49,798 nt of DNA. Origin: a phage. Each line of letters starts with the position of its first letter. The stretch's first letter is position 1. Both the position numbers and the translations under genes were made by a program. The stretch is taken from the sequence record NC_101840.1. The stretch is one strand, 5' to 3'. This document shows positions 7,184 to 33,936 of the stretch, piece after piece. Below the pieces are notes generated by a model, which saw only the letters and a list, made by a program, of their open reading frames with translations, was not told where the DNA came from and ran no database searches.

Positions 7184-7972
7184 ATGGCTAAAGACTATTC
7201 ATCTGTTATGGGCCTTTCTTGCCCTGGTTGTTTGGTTGATTCTACTCGCTACAATATTGATGGTACTGGCGTTTGTGGTTCTGAATCGATCATTGCTGGT
7301 AAGGTTGTTTTCTTCAAAGAGAGAGTAGAAGGTTATAACATATTTGTTGATCAAAAAGAGGCTGATTCAGTAGTTGCTGGTATTGCGCTAAGGAGCAACA
7401 TAACAACAACAGTTAACGAGGAGGACGGGTACTCTGACTACAAAGAAGGTGATCCTATTAGCGTTGTAACTCGTGGTCGCGTGTGGGTGTTAACTGAAAG
7501 TATTGATGAAGCTCCTTCACACGGTGAAAAAGTATATGTTAATAACGATGGATTTGTTGGTAAGTCCGGCGACCAGGTTGTTGATGGGTGGATTTTTACA
7601 GGTGATTTTATGAAATTTGACAGTAGCATTAACATTGTAGGGATTCATATCAAACCTGTAATAGTACATGTTCAAAAGTTAACAGCGGCTATTATTGAAG
7701 ATGTTGATGGTAACAAGCCTGATGGAAACAGACCAAACAATGAGCCTGTTAATCTCAAGGTTACTGTAGAGCCTGAATATGCAACAGATAAAACTGGAAC
7801 ATGGGAGATTTCATTAGGAGGAGAATACGCATCAATTTCGCCAAGTGGTGAAACGGCGCAAGTAACGCCATCAAGCAATGGTGATGTATATGTAAACTGG
7901 ATGGCAAATGACGGATCTGGTGTATCTGACACATTTATCATCAACTTTGTAGATCCAGATCCTGGTCCTTAA
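7184..7972 (+). CDS. putative head decoration/structural protein with C-terminal Ig-like domain (paralogue B)
   Basis: N-terminal similarity to 6624..7133; C-terminal beta-rich Ig-like (Big_2-type) segment. Confidence 0.45.
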   Translation: MAKDYSSVMGLSCPGCLVDSTRYNIDGTGVCGSESIIAGKVVFFKERVEGYNIFVDQKEADSVVAGIALRSNITTTVNEEDGYSDYKEGDPISVVTRGRVWVLTESIDEAPSHGEKVYVNNDGFVGKSGDQVVDGWIFTGDFMKFDSSINIVGIHIKPVIVHVQKLTAAIIEDVDGNKPDGNRPNNEPVNLKVTVEPEYATDKTGTWEISLGGEYASISPSGETAQVTPSSNGDVYVNWMANDGSGVSDTFIINFVDPDPGP

Positions 7973-26045: not shown

Positions 26046-26076
26046 CAAAAAGCCCCGCGTATGCGGGGCATTTTTT
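26046..26076. terminator. bidirectional rho-independent terminator
   Basis: A-run, GCCCCGC-GTAT-GCGGGGC hairpin, T-run, between convergent operons. Confidence 0.6.
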
Positions 26077-26581
26077 AGTCTAACGTGGTTGGTTTGTTTA
26101 CCAGTGCCGCTACAACCGCTTTTAGCTCGTCAATTTCTTTTCTCATCTCATCGTTTTCCGCTTTCAGTTTCTTAACGTGGTGAATCAGTGGAACAGTGAG
26201 GCGCTCATACATAACGCCTTCCGCCACCATGCCATTACTTGAAGCAATGGCAGGATCTTCTCCTTCTTGCAGCGGTCGCCAGTGAACGTACTCCGGCGCA
26301 ATTTCTCCAACCTCTTCCGCGATTAGCCCGTACCATCCCCAATCTTTACGGTCGCTTTCACAGGTTGACCGATACCACACAGGACGCATTTCAAGCATCA
26401 GATCCGCATATTCATCAATAACCGATTCTACGCTGCTCTTATAACGAGAAGAGGAAGTGGAGCGTAAAACTTGCGACACTCCAGCATTTGGATCAAGCCA
26501 TAAGTTTGCTGATTGAGCGGTTGTGTTAATATTAAATAAATAAAATGCATCGTTACCAGTTAGGGGGGTAAAAACTCCCAC
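26075..26581 (-). CDS. tail-fibre C-terminal intramolecular chaperone domain (peptidase S74-like); probably the 3' part of a frameshifted fibre gene
   Basis: SSSRYK, MRPVWYR and GLIAEEVGEIAPE motifs of self-cleaving fibre chaperone domains; GTG start and overlap with upstream ORF. Confidence 0.55.
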   Translation of the reverse strand: MGVFTPLTGNDAFYLFNINTTAQSANLWLDPNAGVSQVLRSTSSSRYKSSVESVIDEYADLMLEMRPVWYRSTCESDRKDWGWYGLIAEEVGEIAPEYVHWRPLQEGEDPAIASSNGMVAEGVMYERLTVPLIHHVKKLKAENDEMRKEIDELKAVVAALVNKPTTLD

Positions 26582-26813
26582 TATACCTTCCGCTACCCAA
26601 CTCGGATGATAGATCAGTTTGTTTTAGATACGGTTTCAACTTATTGTCAACATCAGCAGTTGATGCTTTTCCTGCAACATCCTGTTTTAGTGTCGAAACG
26701 TCATTTTTCAGCTTCGTTATATCACCAGGAATAGTAGCAACATCCTGTTTTAGTGTTGAAACGTCATTTTTCAGCTTCGTTATATCACTAGGTATAACAG
26801 TGACTGTAGCCAT
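26553..26813 (-). CDS. tail-fibre segment with perfect 20-aa tandem repeat (86 aa); likely 5' part of the same fibre gene
   Basis: AAGGAG RBS; IPxDITKLKNDVSTLKQDVA repeated twice; ends at stop just after a T5/C6 homopolymer. Confidence 0.5.
   Translation of the reverse strand: MATVTVIPSDITKLKNDVSTLKQDVATIPGDITKLKNDVSTLKQDVAGKASTADVDNKLKPYLKQTDLSSELGSGRYSGSFYPPNW
26676..26795. repeat. two tandem 60-bp direct repeats inside the fibre ORF
   Basis: near-identical 60-mers on the + strand with 2 mismatches. Confidence 0.7.
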
Positions 26814-26825
26814 TTTCCTAACTCC

Positions 26826-27104
26826 TTAAGCCCATTCTCTAATAGGCTGATCTAACTCAACCACGTATCCATTAAAAATTACGGCATCAAACTTATCATC
26901 AATGATTCGCACATTAACGAAATAGCCGTCGTTCTTTCGCGCAATCTCCTCGCCATCGTCAGATCGTGCAATTACTGTATAAGTATTGCCGATTACATCG
27001 AGCAGGATTGCATCCTGAATGGATTCGTTATCATCCCAATTAATTTTTCCTAAAAAGGCCGAAAACTCGGCCTTGTCTGAAAATTTTAATGTTAAATCAC
27101 GCAT
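26826..27104 (-). CDS. hypothetical tail-fibre-associated protein (92 aa)
   Basis: ATGA coupling to fibre gene; GGGGGAA RBS; start from internal ATG of track ORF 26826..27149. Confidence 0.45.
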   Translation of the reverse strand: MRDLTLKFSDKAEFSAFLGKINWDDNESIQDAILLDVIGNTYTVIARSDDGEEIARKNDGYFVNVRIIDDKFDAVIFNGYVVELDQPIREWA

Positions 27105-29059
27105 TAAACAATTTCCCCCAATTGATGATCTGTTAGCGCCTTGTGCCATATACGGAAGTTTCTAACGTGCCCGAAAAGATGGCGTTCGCCTGTACTTGTT
27201 TGTCCGCCAATCCTTATAGTAGCCGTTGATACTATATATCTCCATTCCGTTTTTGTTTCGCTTGACATTCTGGCATTACTTACACAACAAGTATTGTAAT
27301 CACTCTTTACTCTCATTCCTATGATCATCTTTTTTAGTTTCGCATTCTCGTTAACCCTTCTGTTTGATTTACCTATATCGCAATAAGGGAATCCATCAGC
27401 ATCGCCTTCGGCAGACCCGAAAGCAAGAATAATTCCCGCACCAGATTGATGACCTCCAGTATCGAAAACACGAGGCGCAGCGTTTGGCGTTATACTCCAG
27501 TTTTTATGAGCTTCCACAAGCACTGTAAACGGCAAATTGTAAAGGTTGTTTTTTATTGGCAATGTAACCATATCGCTTGCCCTTGTTGTCGGACTTTTAT
27601 TAGTTATAATGAATGATGAAGCGCAAGATCCAACCTCTACTTGAGGAGTTGTTAAATCCATAAAGCTATTTTCATCAAAAACTTCTCCTTGTTTATTAAC
27701 GACCTGTATTACCCCCCTAATGTAAGTTGATTCATCAGTAACTTTGTAAACTATTTCTGCAAAAATCCATTCCCCGTCTATGGTAGCGTTCTTTAGCACT
27801 ATGTTTTTTGCGTCAACTCCAGAAGTTGCCACCCCTAAGTTATCGCAATCAATAATAGCAGAAGCAACAGAAGATAAAGGATCTCCCTTGTCAAATCTTG
27901 CTGCAAATCTTACATTTTTCCCCTTAGCCCTAAAAGATATTGTAACTCCATCACCCTTTACAACTGCAATCTTATTTGCAGTAGGTCCAGCTATAACAGT
28001 GTAAGAGCCTACGCCACCTAAATATTCCCCTGGTTTAAATGTTGCATACTTAAACCCCCTTTCATCAGTCTTAGTTTCACCTCTTTCTAATCCTGGATTT
28101 GGATTCCATGATTCAGGCTTATTTGAATTTACAAAATAGTTTGTTCTCTGCCCTTCAATCAAAAGACCATCCTTTTCAAATCTAGGTTCATCAATAGCAG
28201 CATCAGTAAGCAACCCAGACTTATTAATGTAAGTAGCGGTTGATGCACGTTTAAACTTAACAATCTTGTCACCTGGCATCGTGATCTCATCATCACCTAT
28301 GACAATCTTTTTGTATGACGGCGAGAATCCGGTGATCATATCCAGGGAATCATTAAATGGTATCCACACGTCAGGTAGAGGCTGCAATAAATCTTTGTAA
28401 GGTTCTGCGGCCTGTTTTGCGTATTCCTCCGCTTGATCTCGCGCACTTTCAGCGCCTGCCTTTGCGGTGTTCGCAGCATCACGCGCAGTTTCAGCGCCTT
28501 TTCTTGCAGTTTCAGCGCCAGTCTTTGCAGTGTTTGCAGCGTCGCGCGCGGATTCAGCGGCAGCCTTTGCAGTGTCAGCACCTTTCTTGCTATTCTTTGC
28601 ATTTGTTGCGCTTGTCTTTGCGTTATTCTCGCTAGTTTTAGCTGCCTTCTGGCTTGCTGCGGCTGCGTCAGCATTTGTCTTTACGTCTTCCTGGATCTTC
28701 TGTAGCTTATCCCAATCAAAATCCTTGATGATCTCAATAAATCCAGCAAACTCCGATTCCTTCCCCTGGTAATAACGCAACGTTTCCGCTACGTCTTGCG
28801 CAAGACCGTCAACCGTTAACGAGTCATGAAGCAAGATCAGGTAATTTGTCTTCTGTACTACCGCGCCTCCAGTAGTAATTGCGCGAATGCTTGTATCGCT
28901 AATCACTTCTGTAATCACAGCAGCTTGCAAAGGTTGAGCAAGAAAGAAAATAGTTGCACCTGGGCGAATCAAGGTTAATTGCTCACGCCATTTTGTACCG
29001 TAACCAGTTACATAACCTTGCGCGTCCATAGACGCTTGGCCTTGTCTGTAAATCGCCAT
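27104..29059 (-). CDS. side tail fibre protein (about 651 aa)
   Basis: N-terminal Ala/Thr/Lys-rich fibre repeats; GGAGG RBS before ATG 29059 (track start 29083 is GTG). Confidence 0.7.
   Translation of the reverse strand: MAIYRQGQASMDAQGYVTGYGTKWREQLTLIRPGATIFFLAQPLQAAVITEVISDTSIRAITTGGAVVQKTNYLILLHDSLTVDGLAQDVAETLRYYQGKESEFAGFIEIIKDFDWDKLQKIQEDVKTNADAAAASQKAAKTSENNAKTSATNAKNSKKGADTAKAAAESARDAANTAKTGAETARKGAETARDAANTAKAGAESARDQAEEYAKQAAEPYKDLLQPLPDVWIPFNDSLDMITGFSPSYKKIVIGDDEITMPGDKIVKFKRASTATYINKSGLLTDAAIDEPRFEKDGLLIEGQRTNYFVNSNKPESWNPNPGLERGETKTDERGFKYATFKPGEYLGGVGSYTVIAGPTANKIAVVKGDGVTISFRAKGKNVRFAARFDKGDPLSSVASAIIDCDNLGVATSGVDAKNIVLKNATIDGEWIFAEIVYKVTDESTYIRGVIQVVNKQGEVFDENSFMDLTTPQVEVGSCASSFIITNKSPTTRASDMVTLPIKNNLYNLPFTVLVEAHKNWSITPNAAPRVFDTGGHQSGAGIILAFGSAEGDADGFPYCDIGKSNRRVNENAKLKKMIIGMRVKSDYNTCCVSNARMSSETKTEWRYIVSTATIRIGGQTSTGERHLFGHVRNFRIWHKALTDHQLGEIV
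28430..28640. repeat. degenerate short repeats encoding Ala/Thr/Lys-rich fibre segment
   Basis: reiterated GCNGAA/ACNGCNAAA-type codon blocks. Confidence 0.4.
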
Positions 29060-29074
29060 TTGTAAAATCCTCCT

Positions 29075-29096
29075 AAATAGCACTTTTTGCTAATGA
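29075..29096 (+). promoter_or_regulatory. conserved junction box, inverted relative to the leftward fibre gene
   Basis: AAATAGCACTTTTTGCTAATGA about 16 nt upstream of the fibre gene start on the opposite strand. Confidence 0.45.
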
Positions 29097-29123: not shown

Positions 29124-29149
29124 CAAAAAAAAACCCCGCATAAGCGGGG
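29124..29149 (-). terminator. rho-independent terminator after primase gene
   Basis: on minus strand: CCCCGC-TTAT-GCGGGG hairpin followed by T8. Confidence 0.6.
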
Positions 29150-29165
29150 CAATACTAGCGGAGTT

Positions 29166-33210: not shown

Positions 33211-33936
33211 ATGGCTAAAGATATTTTAGATAAAGACACCCATGACGCATTCGTTAGCTTTGAGCAGTTGGAGAGAGAAACATTTATAGGGAATGCCCTT
33301 GCAACTGGAGGCCATTACCAGGCAGTAAAGCCAAATCAATATTATAAGGTAAGCGGCAACCGATACGCTGGAAGCACTACGCCGGACGTTGTGCGCGATA
33401 TGTGGAGCACGCCTCAAGAGATCGTGGAGTGGATGGAATCAGAATTTGGTGAATACGATCTCGACGCGGCAGCAAGCCATGAAAACGCAGTTTGCGAGAA
33501 GTTCTATAGCAAGGAAACAAACTGCTTAAAGCGTTGGTGGGGTAGCAACAAGCACGTATGGCTTAACCCGCCGTACAGCAACCCAACTCCATTTATCAAG
33601 AAAGCAATTGAGCAAATGGAGCACAACAACCAAATTGATGTTTTGTTGCCATCCGACAACTCTACAGCATGGTTTTATGAGGCGCAGAAAAACGCGGCTG
33701 AAATCATCTGGATCACTGGCGAGGTTTACGAAGAGGGGGGAGTGGAATATTCCCGCACCGGAAGAATCGCCTTTGTGTCTGGATTGACTGGCGAGCCTGT
33801 ACAGGGCAACAATAAGGGAAGCGTGATTTTTGTCATGCGCAAACTTAAAGAAGGCGAGGAGCAGAAAACGCGATACGTTAAGATCAGCGATATTTGCCCC
33901 TCTGTAACCGAACGCCGCGCGCGCAAACGGAGCTAA
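33211..33936 (+). CDS. dam: DNA N6-adenine methyltransferase (phage Dam type)
   Basis: catalytic NPPY motif (WLNPPYSN) and SAM-binding-like region. Confidence 0.8.
   Translation: MAKDILDKDTHDAFVSFEQLERETFIGNALATGGHYQAVKPNQYYKVSGNRYAGSTTPDVVRDMWSTPQEIVEWMESEFGEYDLDAAASHENAVCEKFYSKETNCLKRWWGSNKHVWLNPPYSNPTPFIKKAIEQMEHNNQIDVLLPSDNSTAWFYEAQKNAAEIIWITGEVYEEGGVEYSRTGRIAFVSGLTGEPVQGNNKGSVIFVMRKLKEGEEQKTRYVKISDICPSVTERRARKRS

What the first reader, a model, noticed from the sequence alone, without database searches (positions are those of the whole stretch)
26075..26813. Tail-fibre gene appears split by a +1 frame change at a T5/C6 homopolymer just upstream of its S74 chaperone domain
ORF 26553-26813 (minus; 20-aa tandem repeat) ends 3 codons after a TTTTT-A-CCCCCC tract. 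ORF 26075-26581 is in the +1 frame, begins inside the same tract at a GTG, and encodes a peptidase S74-type intramolecular chaperone domain that normally must be fused to the fibre it folds. One fewer C would fuse the two ORFs into a single fibre of about 250 aa. This is either a sequencing or assembly indel, a phase-variable tract, or programmed +1 frameshifting.
Basis: partly seen in the sequence, partly recalled or inferred. Interest (0 to 1): 0.6.

Follow-up and report, generated by a model that had tools for sequence, protein, structure and literature searches.

The report
Frameshift-broken small tail-fibre gene
One extra C has broken a small tail-fibre gene in this T1-like coliphage, and the same gene is independently broken in about 40% of its sequenced relatives, so it looks like repeated loss of a dispensable fibre rather than a programmed frameshift.

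Summary
On the minus strand, ORF1 (26813-26553, 86 aa) and ORF2 (26581-26075, 168 aa, peptidase S74 chaperone domain) overlap at a T5-A-C6 tract. Deleting one C gives a 245-aa protein that is 98% identical to the intact orthologue of phage tunus.

The window is Escherichia phage orkinos (MN850586, Warwickvirus). Relatives carry C5, or CCCAC, and a single ORF of 224, 231 or 245 aa. The frame change is therefore not conserved, and programmed +1 frameshifting is not supported.

The gene is also broken in about 14 of 35 related phages, by at least 10 different lesions:
- four different nonsense substitutions;
- three different -1 deletions;
- a +2 insertion and a -13 deletion;
- the same +C at this tract, on four different SNP backgrounds.

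In nine such genomes it is the only broken gene among 72-76 shared genes, with one exception. Intact alleles have dN/dS of about 0.15.

The best reading is a real loss-of-function frameshift at a short mutational hot spot. It is one case of recurrent, gene-specific loss of an accessory fibre, comparable to the lambda PaPa stf frameshift. A lone sequencing error, reversible switching and a leaky +1 slip remain minor alternatives.

The parts
26075..26813 (-). Disrupted gene for a small fibre protein: coiled-coil N-terminus plus C-terminal S74 intramolecular chaperone. It is 245 aa when intact. It is the last gene of the lateral-tail-fibre operon.
   Evidence: Deleting one C restores a 245-aa ORF 98% identical to tunus YP_009901138. 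Fused orthologues are shown.
26553..26813 (-). ORF1 (orkinos_36, 86 aa). It is the N-terminal fragment, ends FYPPNW*, and lacks the last 37 residues of the mature fibre and the whole chaperone.
26075..26581 (-). ORF2 (orkinos_35, 168 aa from an internal GTG). It is the out-of-frame remainder and carries the S74 domain.
26563..26568 (-). C6 run (G6 on the plus strand). It is C5, or CCCAC, in relatives. This is the site of the +1C insertion, at codons 82-83.
26570..26574 (-). T5 run immediately upstream of the C run. It does not vary among relatives.
26674..26796 (-). 63-nt (21-aa) tandem repeat in 2.0 copies, forming a coiled-coil heptad-like segment. Copy number varies among alleles.
   Evidence: Weak LPP leucine-zipper match. 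The model puts a helix at residues 10-47.
26078..26455 (-). S74 / intramolecular chaperone auto-processing domain. It runs from the predicted nucleophile Ser (ORF2 S43, fused numbering S120; codon 26455-26453) to the C-terminus. The partner Lys is ORF2 K48 (K125; codon 26440-26438).
   Evidence: S120 and K125 are invariant in 22 homologues. PDB profile hit 8hqz_d, E=1.7e-7. AF2 pLDDT is about 90 over residues 130-240. Foldseek hit to the MyRF ICA domain 7dc3, E=5e-5. T5 pb1 has the same Thr-Ser...Lys(+5) arrangement (PMC4690869).
26052..26069 (.). Bidirectional intrinsic terminator between the fibre gene and the convergent ssb gene.
26826..27104 (-). Upstream 92-aa gene of unknown function (phrog_1361), intact in all genomes compared.
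27104..29083 (-). Upstream 659-aa lateral tail fibre gene, intact in the window and in all 10 genomes compared.

Best explanation
The region is a single gene for a small virion fibre, 245 aa when intact. It has an N-terminal trimeric coiled coil built from 21-aa repeats, a short shaft, and a C-terminal S74 intramolecular chaperone. By homology, that chaperone folds the trimer and then cuts itself off at Thr119-Ser120.

In phage orkinos, one C was inserted into a C5 run at codons 82-83. Translation then stops four codons later, and the chaperone domain is left out of frame. The allele is null, or at best strongly hypomorphic. ORF1 lacks 37 residues of the mature fibre and its folding domain. 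ORF2 is a chaperone with nothing to fold.

This is not a conserved recoding device. It is one of at least a dozen independent, recent knock-outs of the same gene among closely related Warwickvirus isolates. The C5 run is the most frequently hit site. The most likely cause is replication slippage at the run, followed by enrichment of fibre-less variants. The enrichment would happen while phages are amplified on a single host strain that lacks the fibre's ligand, as with the stf frameshift of lambda PaPa.

Shown here:
- the split and its repair by removing one C;
- fused orthologues;
- multiple independent lesions;
- the gene-specificity of the breakage;
- purifying selection on intact alleles.

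Inferred:
- that the C6 in orkinos is real and not a base-calling error;
- that the lesions were selected rather than drifted;
- what the selective agent is.
For: - Relatives have C5 or CCCAC and one ORF of 245, 231 or 224 aa. Intact lengths also dominate among database homologues.
- Census by DNA sequence. The +C lesion is in orkinos, JLBYU19, AV105 and Logan SRR12199279. Nonsense lesions are in tuinn (codon 167), EC195/EC125 and JLBYU07 (TAC>TAA), Phunderstruck (TGA) and JLBYU01 (codon 219). A -1 deletion is in ityhuna, brachmannus and SECphi27. JLBYU10 has +2, KMB46 has -13, and two further Logan assemblies share one +2 lesion.
- Each C6 allele is 4-8 substitutions from a C5 allele but 11-30 from any other C6 allele. 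The insertion therefore arose at least 3-4 times.
- Genome-wide control with 83 annotated tunus genes. In each of nine genomes with a broken fibre gene, it is the only broken gene among 72-76 shared genes, apart from one extra in JLBYU19. The 659-aa fibre gene next door is intact in all 10. Fisher test, 14/35 against 1/730: p=1e-19.
- A G6 run in the methyltransferase gene is conserved and in frame in 10 of the 11 genomes, window included. Run length alone therefore does not produce observed frameshifts.
- Median dN/dS among intact alleles is 0.155.
- orkinos was enriched twice overnight on MG1655 and sequenced on Illumina NextSeq (PMC7552041).
- Precedent: the lambda PaPa stf frameshift, and the non-essential side fibres of T5 on rough laboratory strains (PMC12617516). 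Lateral fibres of Drexlerviridae are thought dispensable on K-12 (PMC8594841).
Against: - Raw reads were not available, so a consensus error at C6 in orkinos itself is not excluded.
- The selective advantage of losing the fibre is untested.
- Null alleles also occur in phages isolated on non-K-12 hosts (AV105 on ESBL128, KMB46 on KMB575). Many isolates from K-12 keep the gene intact. 'Laboratory K-12 selection' is therefore at best part of the story.
- Null alleles could instead pre-exist as short-lived variants in wastewater populations.
- The status of about 4 of the 35 phages rests only on annotation and match length (tunzivis, JLBYU38, and two of Tuinin/ExeQuayColi/MartyMcPhage).
- Some events may be shared by recombination rather than independent. 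TAC>TAA in EC195 and JLBYU07 is the clearest candidate.
Confidence: 0.72

Rival explanations
1. Reversible ON/OFF switch (contingency locus). The C5/C6 run slips during replication, so phage populations always contain fibre-plus and fibre-minus particles. orkinos would simply have been sequenced in the OFF state and could revert by losing a C.
For: The same +C recurs on at least four SNP backgrounds, and two further Logan assemblies have matching ORF1/ORF2 lengths. It is the commonest single lesion. A 2025 preprint argues that phage homopolymers of 6 or more act as contingency loci, and it includes the Warwickvirus SECphi27 (10.1101/2025.10.21.683753). Campylobacter phages use polyG tracts in this way (Sorensen 2021, cited in PMC10877375).
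Against: The ON state is only C5, well below the run lengths of known phase-variable loci. The run is not conserved: tinuso, ityhuna, tonn and JLBYU01 have the synonymous CCCAC, and BabyEgg differs further. Most knock-outs of the gene are irreversible nonsense or deletion lesions elsewhere. No C4 or C7 alleles were seen.
Confidence: 0.12
2. Sequencing or assembly artefact. orkinos really has C5, and the extra C is a consensus error.
For: The lesion lies in a homopolymer. No raw reads or independent assembly of orkinos were available; its two proteins are held only by NCBI, UniRef and nr.
Against: The consensus comes from Illumina NextSeq paired-end data. It is the only broken gene of 76 shared genes in the window. 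A 6-nt G run elsewhere is read in frame. The identical lesion is found in JLBYU19, AV105 and independent Logan assemblies. Relatives carry nonsense substitutions in the same gene, and homopolymer errors cannot explain those.
Confidence: 0.1
3. [quoted passage not shown] The product would be a full-length fibre with exactly the ancestral sequence (...FYPLTGN...).
For: The run allows perfect re-pairing in the +1 frame, and the shifted product equals the wild-type protein. CC[C/U]-[C/U] is a known slippery motif. It gives up to about 1% +1 frameshifting in E. coli at its most shift-prone position (PMC4519876).
Against: The configuration is not conserved, because most orthologues are in frame. By inspection, there is no stop or rare codon in the A site. 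The Shine-Dalgarno-like GGGAG lies 7 nt upstream, not the 3 nt seen in prfB. Expected efficiency is 1% or less. Other alleles inactivate the gene by means that cannot be recoded.
Confidence: 0.04

Closest known systems
Lambda PaPa stf frameshift (Hendrix & Duda 1992; summarised in PMC12617516)
   Same: An accessory side-fibre gene is split into two ORFs by a single-base frameshift. The phage remains fully viable on laboratory E. coli. Intact relatives show the gene is normally one ORF.
   Different: Lambda PaPa is one historical event in one laboratory lineage. Here at least 10 different lesions hit the same gene in independently isolated phages from several countries. The fibre is also much smaller (245 aa) and uses an S74 intramolecular chaperone rather than a separate Tfa assembly protein.
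Tail fibres and tailspikes with a C-terminal S74 intramolecular chaperone (K1F endosialidase 3GW6, T5 pb1 L-shaped fibre, phi29/GA-1 appendages, MyRF ICA domain)
   Same: It has a C-terminal domain with the same fold and the same Thr-Ser...Lys(+5) catalytic arrangement.
   Different: The passenger is very short, about 119 residues and mostly coiled coil. In orkinos the passenger and the chaperone are in different reading frames.
Phage contingency loci: Campylobacter phage polyG tracts (Sorensen 2021) and homopolymers of 6 or more in T2/T4/SECphi27 (preprint 10.1101/2025.10.21.683753)
   Same: A homopolymer inside a phage gene gains or loses a base and switches the gene off. The +C recurs independently here.
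   Different: The run is only 5-6 nt, is replaced by CCCAC in several alleles, and accounts for a minority of the knock-outs. Reversibility and within-population heterogeneity have not been shown.
prfB-type programmed +1 frameshifting and spontaneous CCC-C slippage by tRNA-Pro
   Same: The CCC-C motif allows P-site re-pairing in the +1 frame, and a shift would restore the ancestral protein.
   Different: There is no conserved frameshift configuration among orthologues, no A-site pause codon, and no correctly spaced Shine-Dalgarno stimulator.

Membership tests
Peptidase S74 / intramolecular chaperone auto-processing (ICA) fibre proteins | Sequence match to the S74 family profile | tested here: met
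   PF13884 matches ORF2 aa 43-99 (E=1.6e-4, 22.3 bits against a cutoff of 22). Many homologues carry precomputed PF13884.
Peptidase S74 / intramolecular chaperone auto-processing (ICA) fibre proteins | Fold of solved ICA domains | tested here: met
   Profile A1 against PDB: 8hqz_d L-shaped tail fibre C-terminus, E=1.7e-7, and MyRF ICA 7dc3, E=0.004. The AF2 model has pLDDT of about 90 over residues 130-240. Foldseek: 7dc3 E=5e-5, probability 1.0; 3gw6 and 3gud are weaker.
Peptidase S74 / intramolecular chaperone auto-processing (ICA) fibre proteins | Catalytic Ser with Lys five residues downstream, preceded by Thr | tested here: met
   S120 and K125 are invariant and T119 nearly invariant in 22 homologues. 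T5 pb1 has the same Thr1263-Ser1264...Lys1269 arrangement (PMC4690869).
Peptidase S74 / intramolecular chaperone auto-processing (ICA) fibre proteins | Chaperone translated in cis, at the C-terminus of the fibre it folds | tested here: not met
   In the window the passenger (ORF1) and the chaperone (ORF2) are in different frames. The feature is met in intact orthologues. The gene belongs to the family, but this allele is a broken member.
Peptidase S74 / intramolecular chaperone auto-processing (ICA) fibre proteins | Autoproteolytic release after trimer folding | not testable with these tools
   Requires protein expression.
Programmed +1 ribosomal frameshift site | Frameshift configuration conserved among orthologues | tested here: not met
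   21 of 25 alleles read at DNA level have an in-frame C5, CCCAC or other tract.
Programmed +1 ribosomal frameshift site | Slippery codon allowing P-site re-pairing in the +1 frame | tested here: met
   UAC CCC CCU: CCC re-pairs with the overlapping CCC. The motif is known to be slippery (PMC4519876).
Programmed +1 ribosomal frameshift site | Stimulators: a slow or stop codon in the A site, and a Shine-Dalgarno-like element about 3 nt upstream | tested here: not met
   The A-site codon is CCU. GGGAG lies 7 nt upstream of CCC (sequence).
Phase-variable contingency locus (homopolymer) | Recurrent length change at the same tract among close relatives | tested here: met
   C6 is present on four different backgrounds, each nearest to a C5 allele.
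Phase-variable contingency locus (homopolymer) | Tract long enough to be hypermutable and maintained by selection | tested here: not met
   The ON state is C5. Four alleles have the synonymous CCCAC and BabyEgg lacks the tract. The preprint's own threshold is 6 or more.
Phase-variable contingency locus (homopolymer) | Within-population heterogeneity and reversion | not testable with these tools
   Needs read-level data or reversion experiments.
Loss of an accessory tail fibre in cultured phage (lambda PaPa stf type) | Gene intact and under purifying selection in relatives | tested here: met
   At least 17 alleles are intact. Median dN/dS is 0.155.
Loss of an accessory tail fibre in cultured phage (lambda PaPa stf type) | Lesion destroys the ORF while the phage stays viable on its isolation host | tested here: met
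   About 14 isolates with null or truncated alleles were propagated and deposited as complete genomes.
Loss of an accessory tail fibre in cultured phage (lambda PaPa stf type) | Breakage specific to this gene rather than genome-wide | tested here: met
   It is the only broken gene of 72-76 shared genes in 8 of 9 genomes with a broken fibre gene, and one of two in JLBYU19. p=1e-19.
Loss of an accessory tail fibre in cultured phage (lambda PaPa stf type) | Fitness or plaque advantage of the fibre-less form in culture | not testable with these tools
   Requires competition and adsorption experiments.

The most novel reading that the evidence does not exclude
The small S74 fibre of Warwickvirus phages may be actively counter-selected whenever these phages are amplified on a single host. 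The fibre might slow diffusion, bind non-productively, or be sensed by a host defence. The C5/C6 run would then act as a reversible switch, with a low-level +1 slip at CCC-C that restores the exact wild-type protein. Populations would hedge between fibre-plus and fibre-minus particles. On this reading orkinos is a natural OFF-state variant, not a dead allele.
Probability: 0.15. Interest if true: 0.7.

Novelty: new member of a known kind. Interest (0 to 1): 0.42.

Why it matters
For this record alone the consequence is practical. orkinos_35 and orkinos_36 should be annotated as one disrupted fibre gene, not as two hypothetical proteins. The phage probably lacks this fibre, which matters for host-range work.

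The wider pattern is more useful. About 40% of sequenced isolates of one phage genus carry independent knock-outs of the same 245-aa gene, while the adjacent large fibre gene and about 75 other genes stay intact. That marks the fibre as dispensable, and possibly costly, under isolation conditions.

The pattern warns that culture collections under-represent the natural adsorption apparatus. It also supplies ready-made pairs of near-isogenic phages for finding what the fibre binds and why it is lost. Examples are orkinos and tuinn against tunus, AV105 against EC195, and SRR12199279 against SLUR29.

Tried and rejected
- **IMG/VR scans.** An exact-pattern scan and a protein-guided scan of IMG/VR each found only one relative, which is intact with C5. 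They were too few for statistics.
- **Metagenome scan.** I therefore could not measure how common null alleles are in uncultured samples.
- **Single-sequence PDB search.** It found no S74 structure, only a weak coiled-coil match to P22-type tail needle gp26 and a spurious antibody hit. A 22-sequence profile was needed.
- **First genome-wide control.** It used greedily chosen ORFs and was noisy, because antisense ORFs were scored as broken genes. I replaced it with the 83 annotated tunus CDS.
- **Contingency-loci preprint.** No supplementary tables are held for it. I could not check whether SECphi27 reads vary in this gene.
- **Transcriptional slippage.** I considered it and set it aside. The T5 and C6 runs are, from my own knowledge rather than a test here, shorter than the A/T runs of about 9 or more that give appreciable RNA polymerase slippage. 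It also would not explain the in-frame C5 of relatives.
- **ORF2 as an independent trans-acting chaperone.** I considered and rejected this. Orthologues are fused. The GTG and the GGAAGG upstream of it are coding sequence conserved in intact alleles. ORF1 also lacks 37 residues of the mature fibre.

Full report
**1. What is in the sequence**

Read on the minus strand, the region contains ATG GCT ACA ... AGT TTT TAC CCC CCT AAC TGG TAA. This is ORF1 (26813-26553, 86 aa). A second ORF begins at the GTG at 26581, lies one base forward in frame, and runs to 26075. This is ORF2 (168 aa).

The tract is T5 (26574-26570), A, and C6 (26568-26563). ORF1 contains a 63-nt tandem repeat in 2.0 copies (26674-26796, 21 aa per unit). 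ORF2 matches Pfam Peptidase_S74 just above its gathering score.

Deleting one C gives a 738-nt open gene. Its 245-aa product is identical to the intact tunus protein at 241 of 246 positions, counting the stop.

**2. Identity of the window**

An exact protein look-up shows ORF2 and ORF1 are orkinos_35 (QHR67842.1) and orkinos_36 (QHR67843.1), on a 49,798-bp contig, which is the length of the window.

Escherichia phage orkinos (MN850586) is a Warwickvirus (Drexlerviridae, T1-like). It was isolated from Danish wastewater by two overnight liquid enrichments on E. coli K-12 MG1655. It was sequenced with Nextera XT on an Illumina NextSeq and assembled in CLC. The paper does not mention a frameshift (PMC7552041).

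The window is about 98% identical to many GenBank Warwickvirus genomes.

**3. What the gene encodes**

A 22-sequence alignment of homologues shows an invariant S120 and K125 and a nearly invariant T119, within the motif R-S-T-S-S-x-R-Y-K.

A profile of this alignment finds two solved structures:
- the C-terminus of an L-shaped tail fibre (8hqz_d, E=1.7e-7);
- the MyRF ICA domain (7dc3, E=0.004).

An AlphaFold model has pLDDT of about 90 across residues 130-240, a long N-terminal helix at residues 10-47, and low confidence around residues 75-100. Foldseek places the confident part with the MyRF ICA domain (E=5e-5, probability 1.0), and more weakly with the K1F and GA-1 intramolecular chaperones 3gw6 and 3gud.

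In T5 pb1 the chaperone is released by cleavage of Thr1263-Ser1264, with Lys1269 as partner (PMC4690869). The spacing here is the same. By homology, the mature fibre is residues 1-119 and the chaperone is residues 120-245.

The frameshift at codons 82-83 lies inside the mature part, 37 residues before the predicted cleavage site.

The gene is the last of a three-gene operon:
- a 659-aa lateral tail fibre;
- a 92-aa protein of unknown function;
- this gene, followed by a bidirectional terminator.

In PHROGs the whole protein aligns to the last ~240 positions of a 1385-position tail-fibre family (phrog_3299, E=2e-89). In some phages, therefore, the module is the end of one long fibre protein.

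**4. Orthologues are fused**

The following carry C5, or the synonymous CCCAC, and a single ORF of 245, 231 or 224 aa: tunus, tinuso, JK16, swan01, tonn, SLUR29, JLBYU16, WaterSpirit, BabyEgg and an IMG/VR contig. The three lengths differ only in repeat copy number.

By annotated protein length, these are also intact: G3B1, XY3, a second tunus isolate, BEBK14, PeterMerian, Jahat and MatMar.

They do not. The gene is normally one ORF, and a conserved recoding signal is not present.

**5. The gene is broken again and again**

Reading 25 alleles at DNA level gives these lesions:

| Lesion | Alleles |
|---|---|
| +C in the C5 run | orkinos, JLBYU19, AV105, Logan assembly SRR12199279 |
| GAG>TAG at codon 167 | tuinn |
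| TAC>TAA | EC195 (and its near-twin EC125), JLBYU07 |
| GGA>TGA | Phunderstruck |
| nonsense at codon 219 | JLBYU01 |
| -1, at three different places | ityhuna, brachmannus, SECphi27 |
| +CC | JLBYU10 |
| -13 | KMB46 |
| +2 near codon 21 | Logan assemblies SRR24140660 and SRR24140656 |

Two more Logan contigs carry ORF pairs of 86 or 65 aa plus 168 aa, which imply the same +C.

Among the 35 named phages that hold the gene (plus the window), about 14 are disrupted. Two of these, SECphi27 and JLBYU01, lose only the C-terminal end of the chaperone. About four more were judged intact from annotation and match length only: tunzivis, JLBYU38, and two of Tuinin, ExeQuayColi and MartyMcPhage.

**6. 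The C insertions are independent**

Each C6 allele has a much closer C5 neighbour than any other C6 allele. The other C6 alleles are 11-30 substitutions away.

| C6 allele | Nearest non-C6 allele | Substitutions |
|---|---|---|
| orkinos | tuinn | 6 |
| AV105 | EC195 | 4 |
| SRR12199279 | SLUR29 | 4 |
| JLBYU19 | ityhuna (CCCAC) | 8 |

The SNPs flanking the tract also differ among the four C6 alleles. The run is thus a recurrent target, hit at least 3-4 times.

orkinos and tuinn, from the same study, share an almost identical allele but carry different knock-outs.

**7. The breakage is specific to this gene**

I used the 83 annotated CDS of tunus as references. I scored a gene as broken when its homologous region was present but not in one open frame. 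In each of nine genomes with a broken fibre gene, that gene is the only broken one among 72-76 shared genes. The one exception is a second broken gene in JLBYU19. swan01 has none.

The neighbouring 659-aa fibre gene is a 2.7-fold larger target, yet it is intact in all ten genomes. Comparing 14/35 with 1/730 gives p=1e-19.

A G6 run in the adenine methyltransferase gene (window 33735-33740) is conserved in frame in 10 of the 11 genomes, the window included. A 6-nt G/C run does not by itself yield observed frameshifts.

These controls argue against general sequencing sloppiness. They also argue against a purely mutational explanation.

**8. The gene is functional in nature**

Among ten intact alleles the median pairwise dN/dS is 0.155, over 29 pairs with dS above 0.05. 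Each broken allele carries a single lesion on an otherwise intact background. The knock-outs are therefore recent.

**9. Mechanism and its rivals**

*Best-supported account.* Replication slippage added a C to a short run in a functional accessory-fibre gene. The fibre-less variant then became the majority in the sequenced lysate.

The parallel knock-outs point to selection, or at least strong relaxation, that is specific to this gene during amplification on one host. The known precedent is lambda PaPa, where a frameshift in stf removes side fibres that speed adsorption but are not needed for plaque formation. T5 fibres are likewise dispensable on rough K-12 (PMC12617516). Lateral fibres of Drexlerviridae are thought to bind O-antigen and to be non-essential on K-12 (PMC8594841).

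What selects against the fibre is not known. Null alleles also occur in phages isolated on non-K-12 strains. Many K-12 isolates keep the gene. Short-lived null variants already present in wastewater would also fit the data.

*Rival 1: a reversible contingency switch.* The recurrence of +C supports it. So does a recent preprint that treats phage homopolymers of 6 or more as contingency loci and includes the Warwickvirus SECphi27. Against it:
- the ON state is only C5;
- the run is replaced by CCCAC in four alleles;
- most knock-outs are irreversible.

*Rival 2: a sequencing error.* It is unlikely, for the reasons in sections 5 and 7, but only reads can settle it for this record.

*Rival 3: +1 ribosomal frameshifting.* The chemistry is attractive. 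CCC-C lets tRNA-Pro re-pair perfectly, the shifted product is exactly the ancestral protein, and such motifs give up to about 1% slippage (PMC4519876). However, the site lacks conservation and stimulators. At most it would make the allele slightly leaky.

**10. Verdict**

The finding is real. Its explanation is ordinary in kind: a frameshift-inactivated accessory fibre gene. orkinos_35 and orkinos_36 should be read as one disrupted gene.

What lifts it above routine is the context uncovered here. There is a strong, statistically clear pattern of independent knock-outs of this one small S74 fibre gene across a phage genus, with the C5 run as the favoured site. That pattern is directly testable with existing near-isogenic isolates.

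Noticed in passing
window 26674-26796: The 63-nt (21-aa) tandem repeat varies in copy number among alleles. Orkinos, tunus and SLUR29 have two copies (245 aa). Tinuso, JK16, swan01 and tonn have one (224 aa). JLBYU16, BEBK14, PeterMerian and an IMG/VR contig have a 231-aa variant. Fibre length therefore varies in steps of three coiled-coil heptads.
   Followed up: partly
window 7184-7969 (+), 262-aa ORF between the HtjA-like gene and the major capsid gene: This is the only other gene that scored as broken in the genome-wide control. It is broken in JLBYU19, shortened in ityhuna, and absent or diverged in Phunderstruck and swan01. It may be a second dispensable, variable structural or decoration gene.
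   Followed up: no
window 27712-27717 and 33735-33740: These are the only other G/C runs of 6 or more in the window. The first lies inside the 659-aa lateral tail fibre gene and is specific to the orkinos allele among the genomes compared. The second lies in the adenine methyltransferase gene and is conserved as G6, in frame, in 10 of the 11 genomes, window included.
   Followed up: partly
window 26075-26813 (protein level): The whole 245-aa protein aligns to the last ~240 positions of a 1385-position PHROG tail-fibre family (phrog_3299, E=2e-89). In other phages this module is the C-terminal end of a single long fibre. Homologues of 220-270 aa, at 54-64% identity, are also abundant in E. coli genomes, in clusters of 650 and 2928 members.
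   Followed up: no
L011 (SECphi27 NC_047938, 44620-45327) and L027 (JLBYU01): Both carry lesions that remove only the last 12-27 residues of the chaperone's terminal helix. SECphi27 has a -1 in an A4 run, and JLBYU01 has a nonsense codon at 219. The SECphi27-type 233-aa product occurs on 9 contigs. Whether these alleles still fold the fibre is unknown.
   Followed up: no
window 26052-26069: A perfect 7-bp GC stem with T-runs on both sides forms a bidirectional intrinsic terminator. It is shared by the fibre operon and the convergent ssb gene. A near-identical hairpin lies at 29133-29150, upstream of the fibre operon.
   Followed up: no
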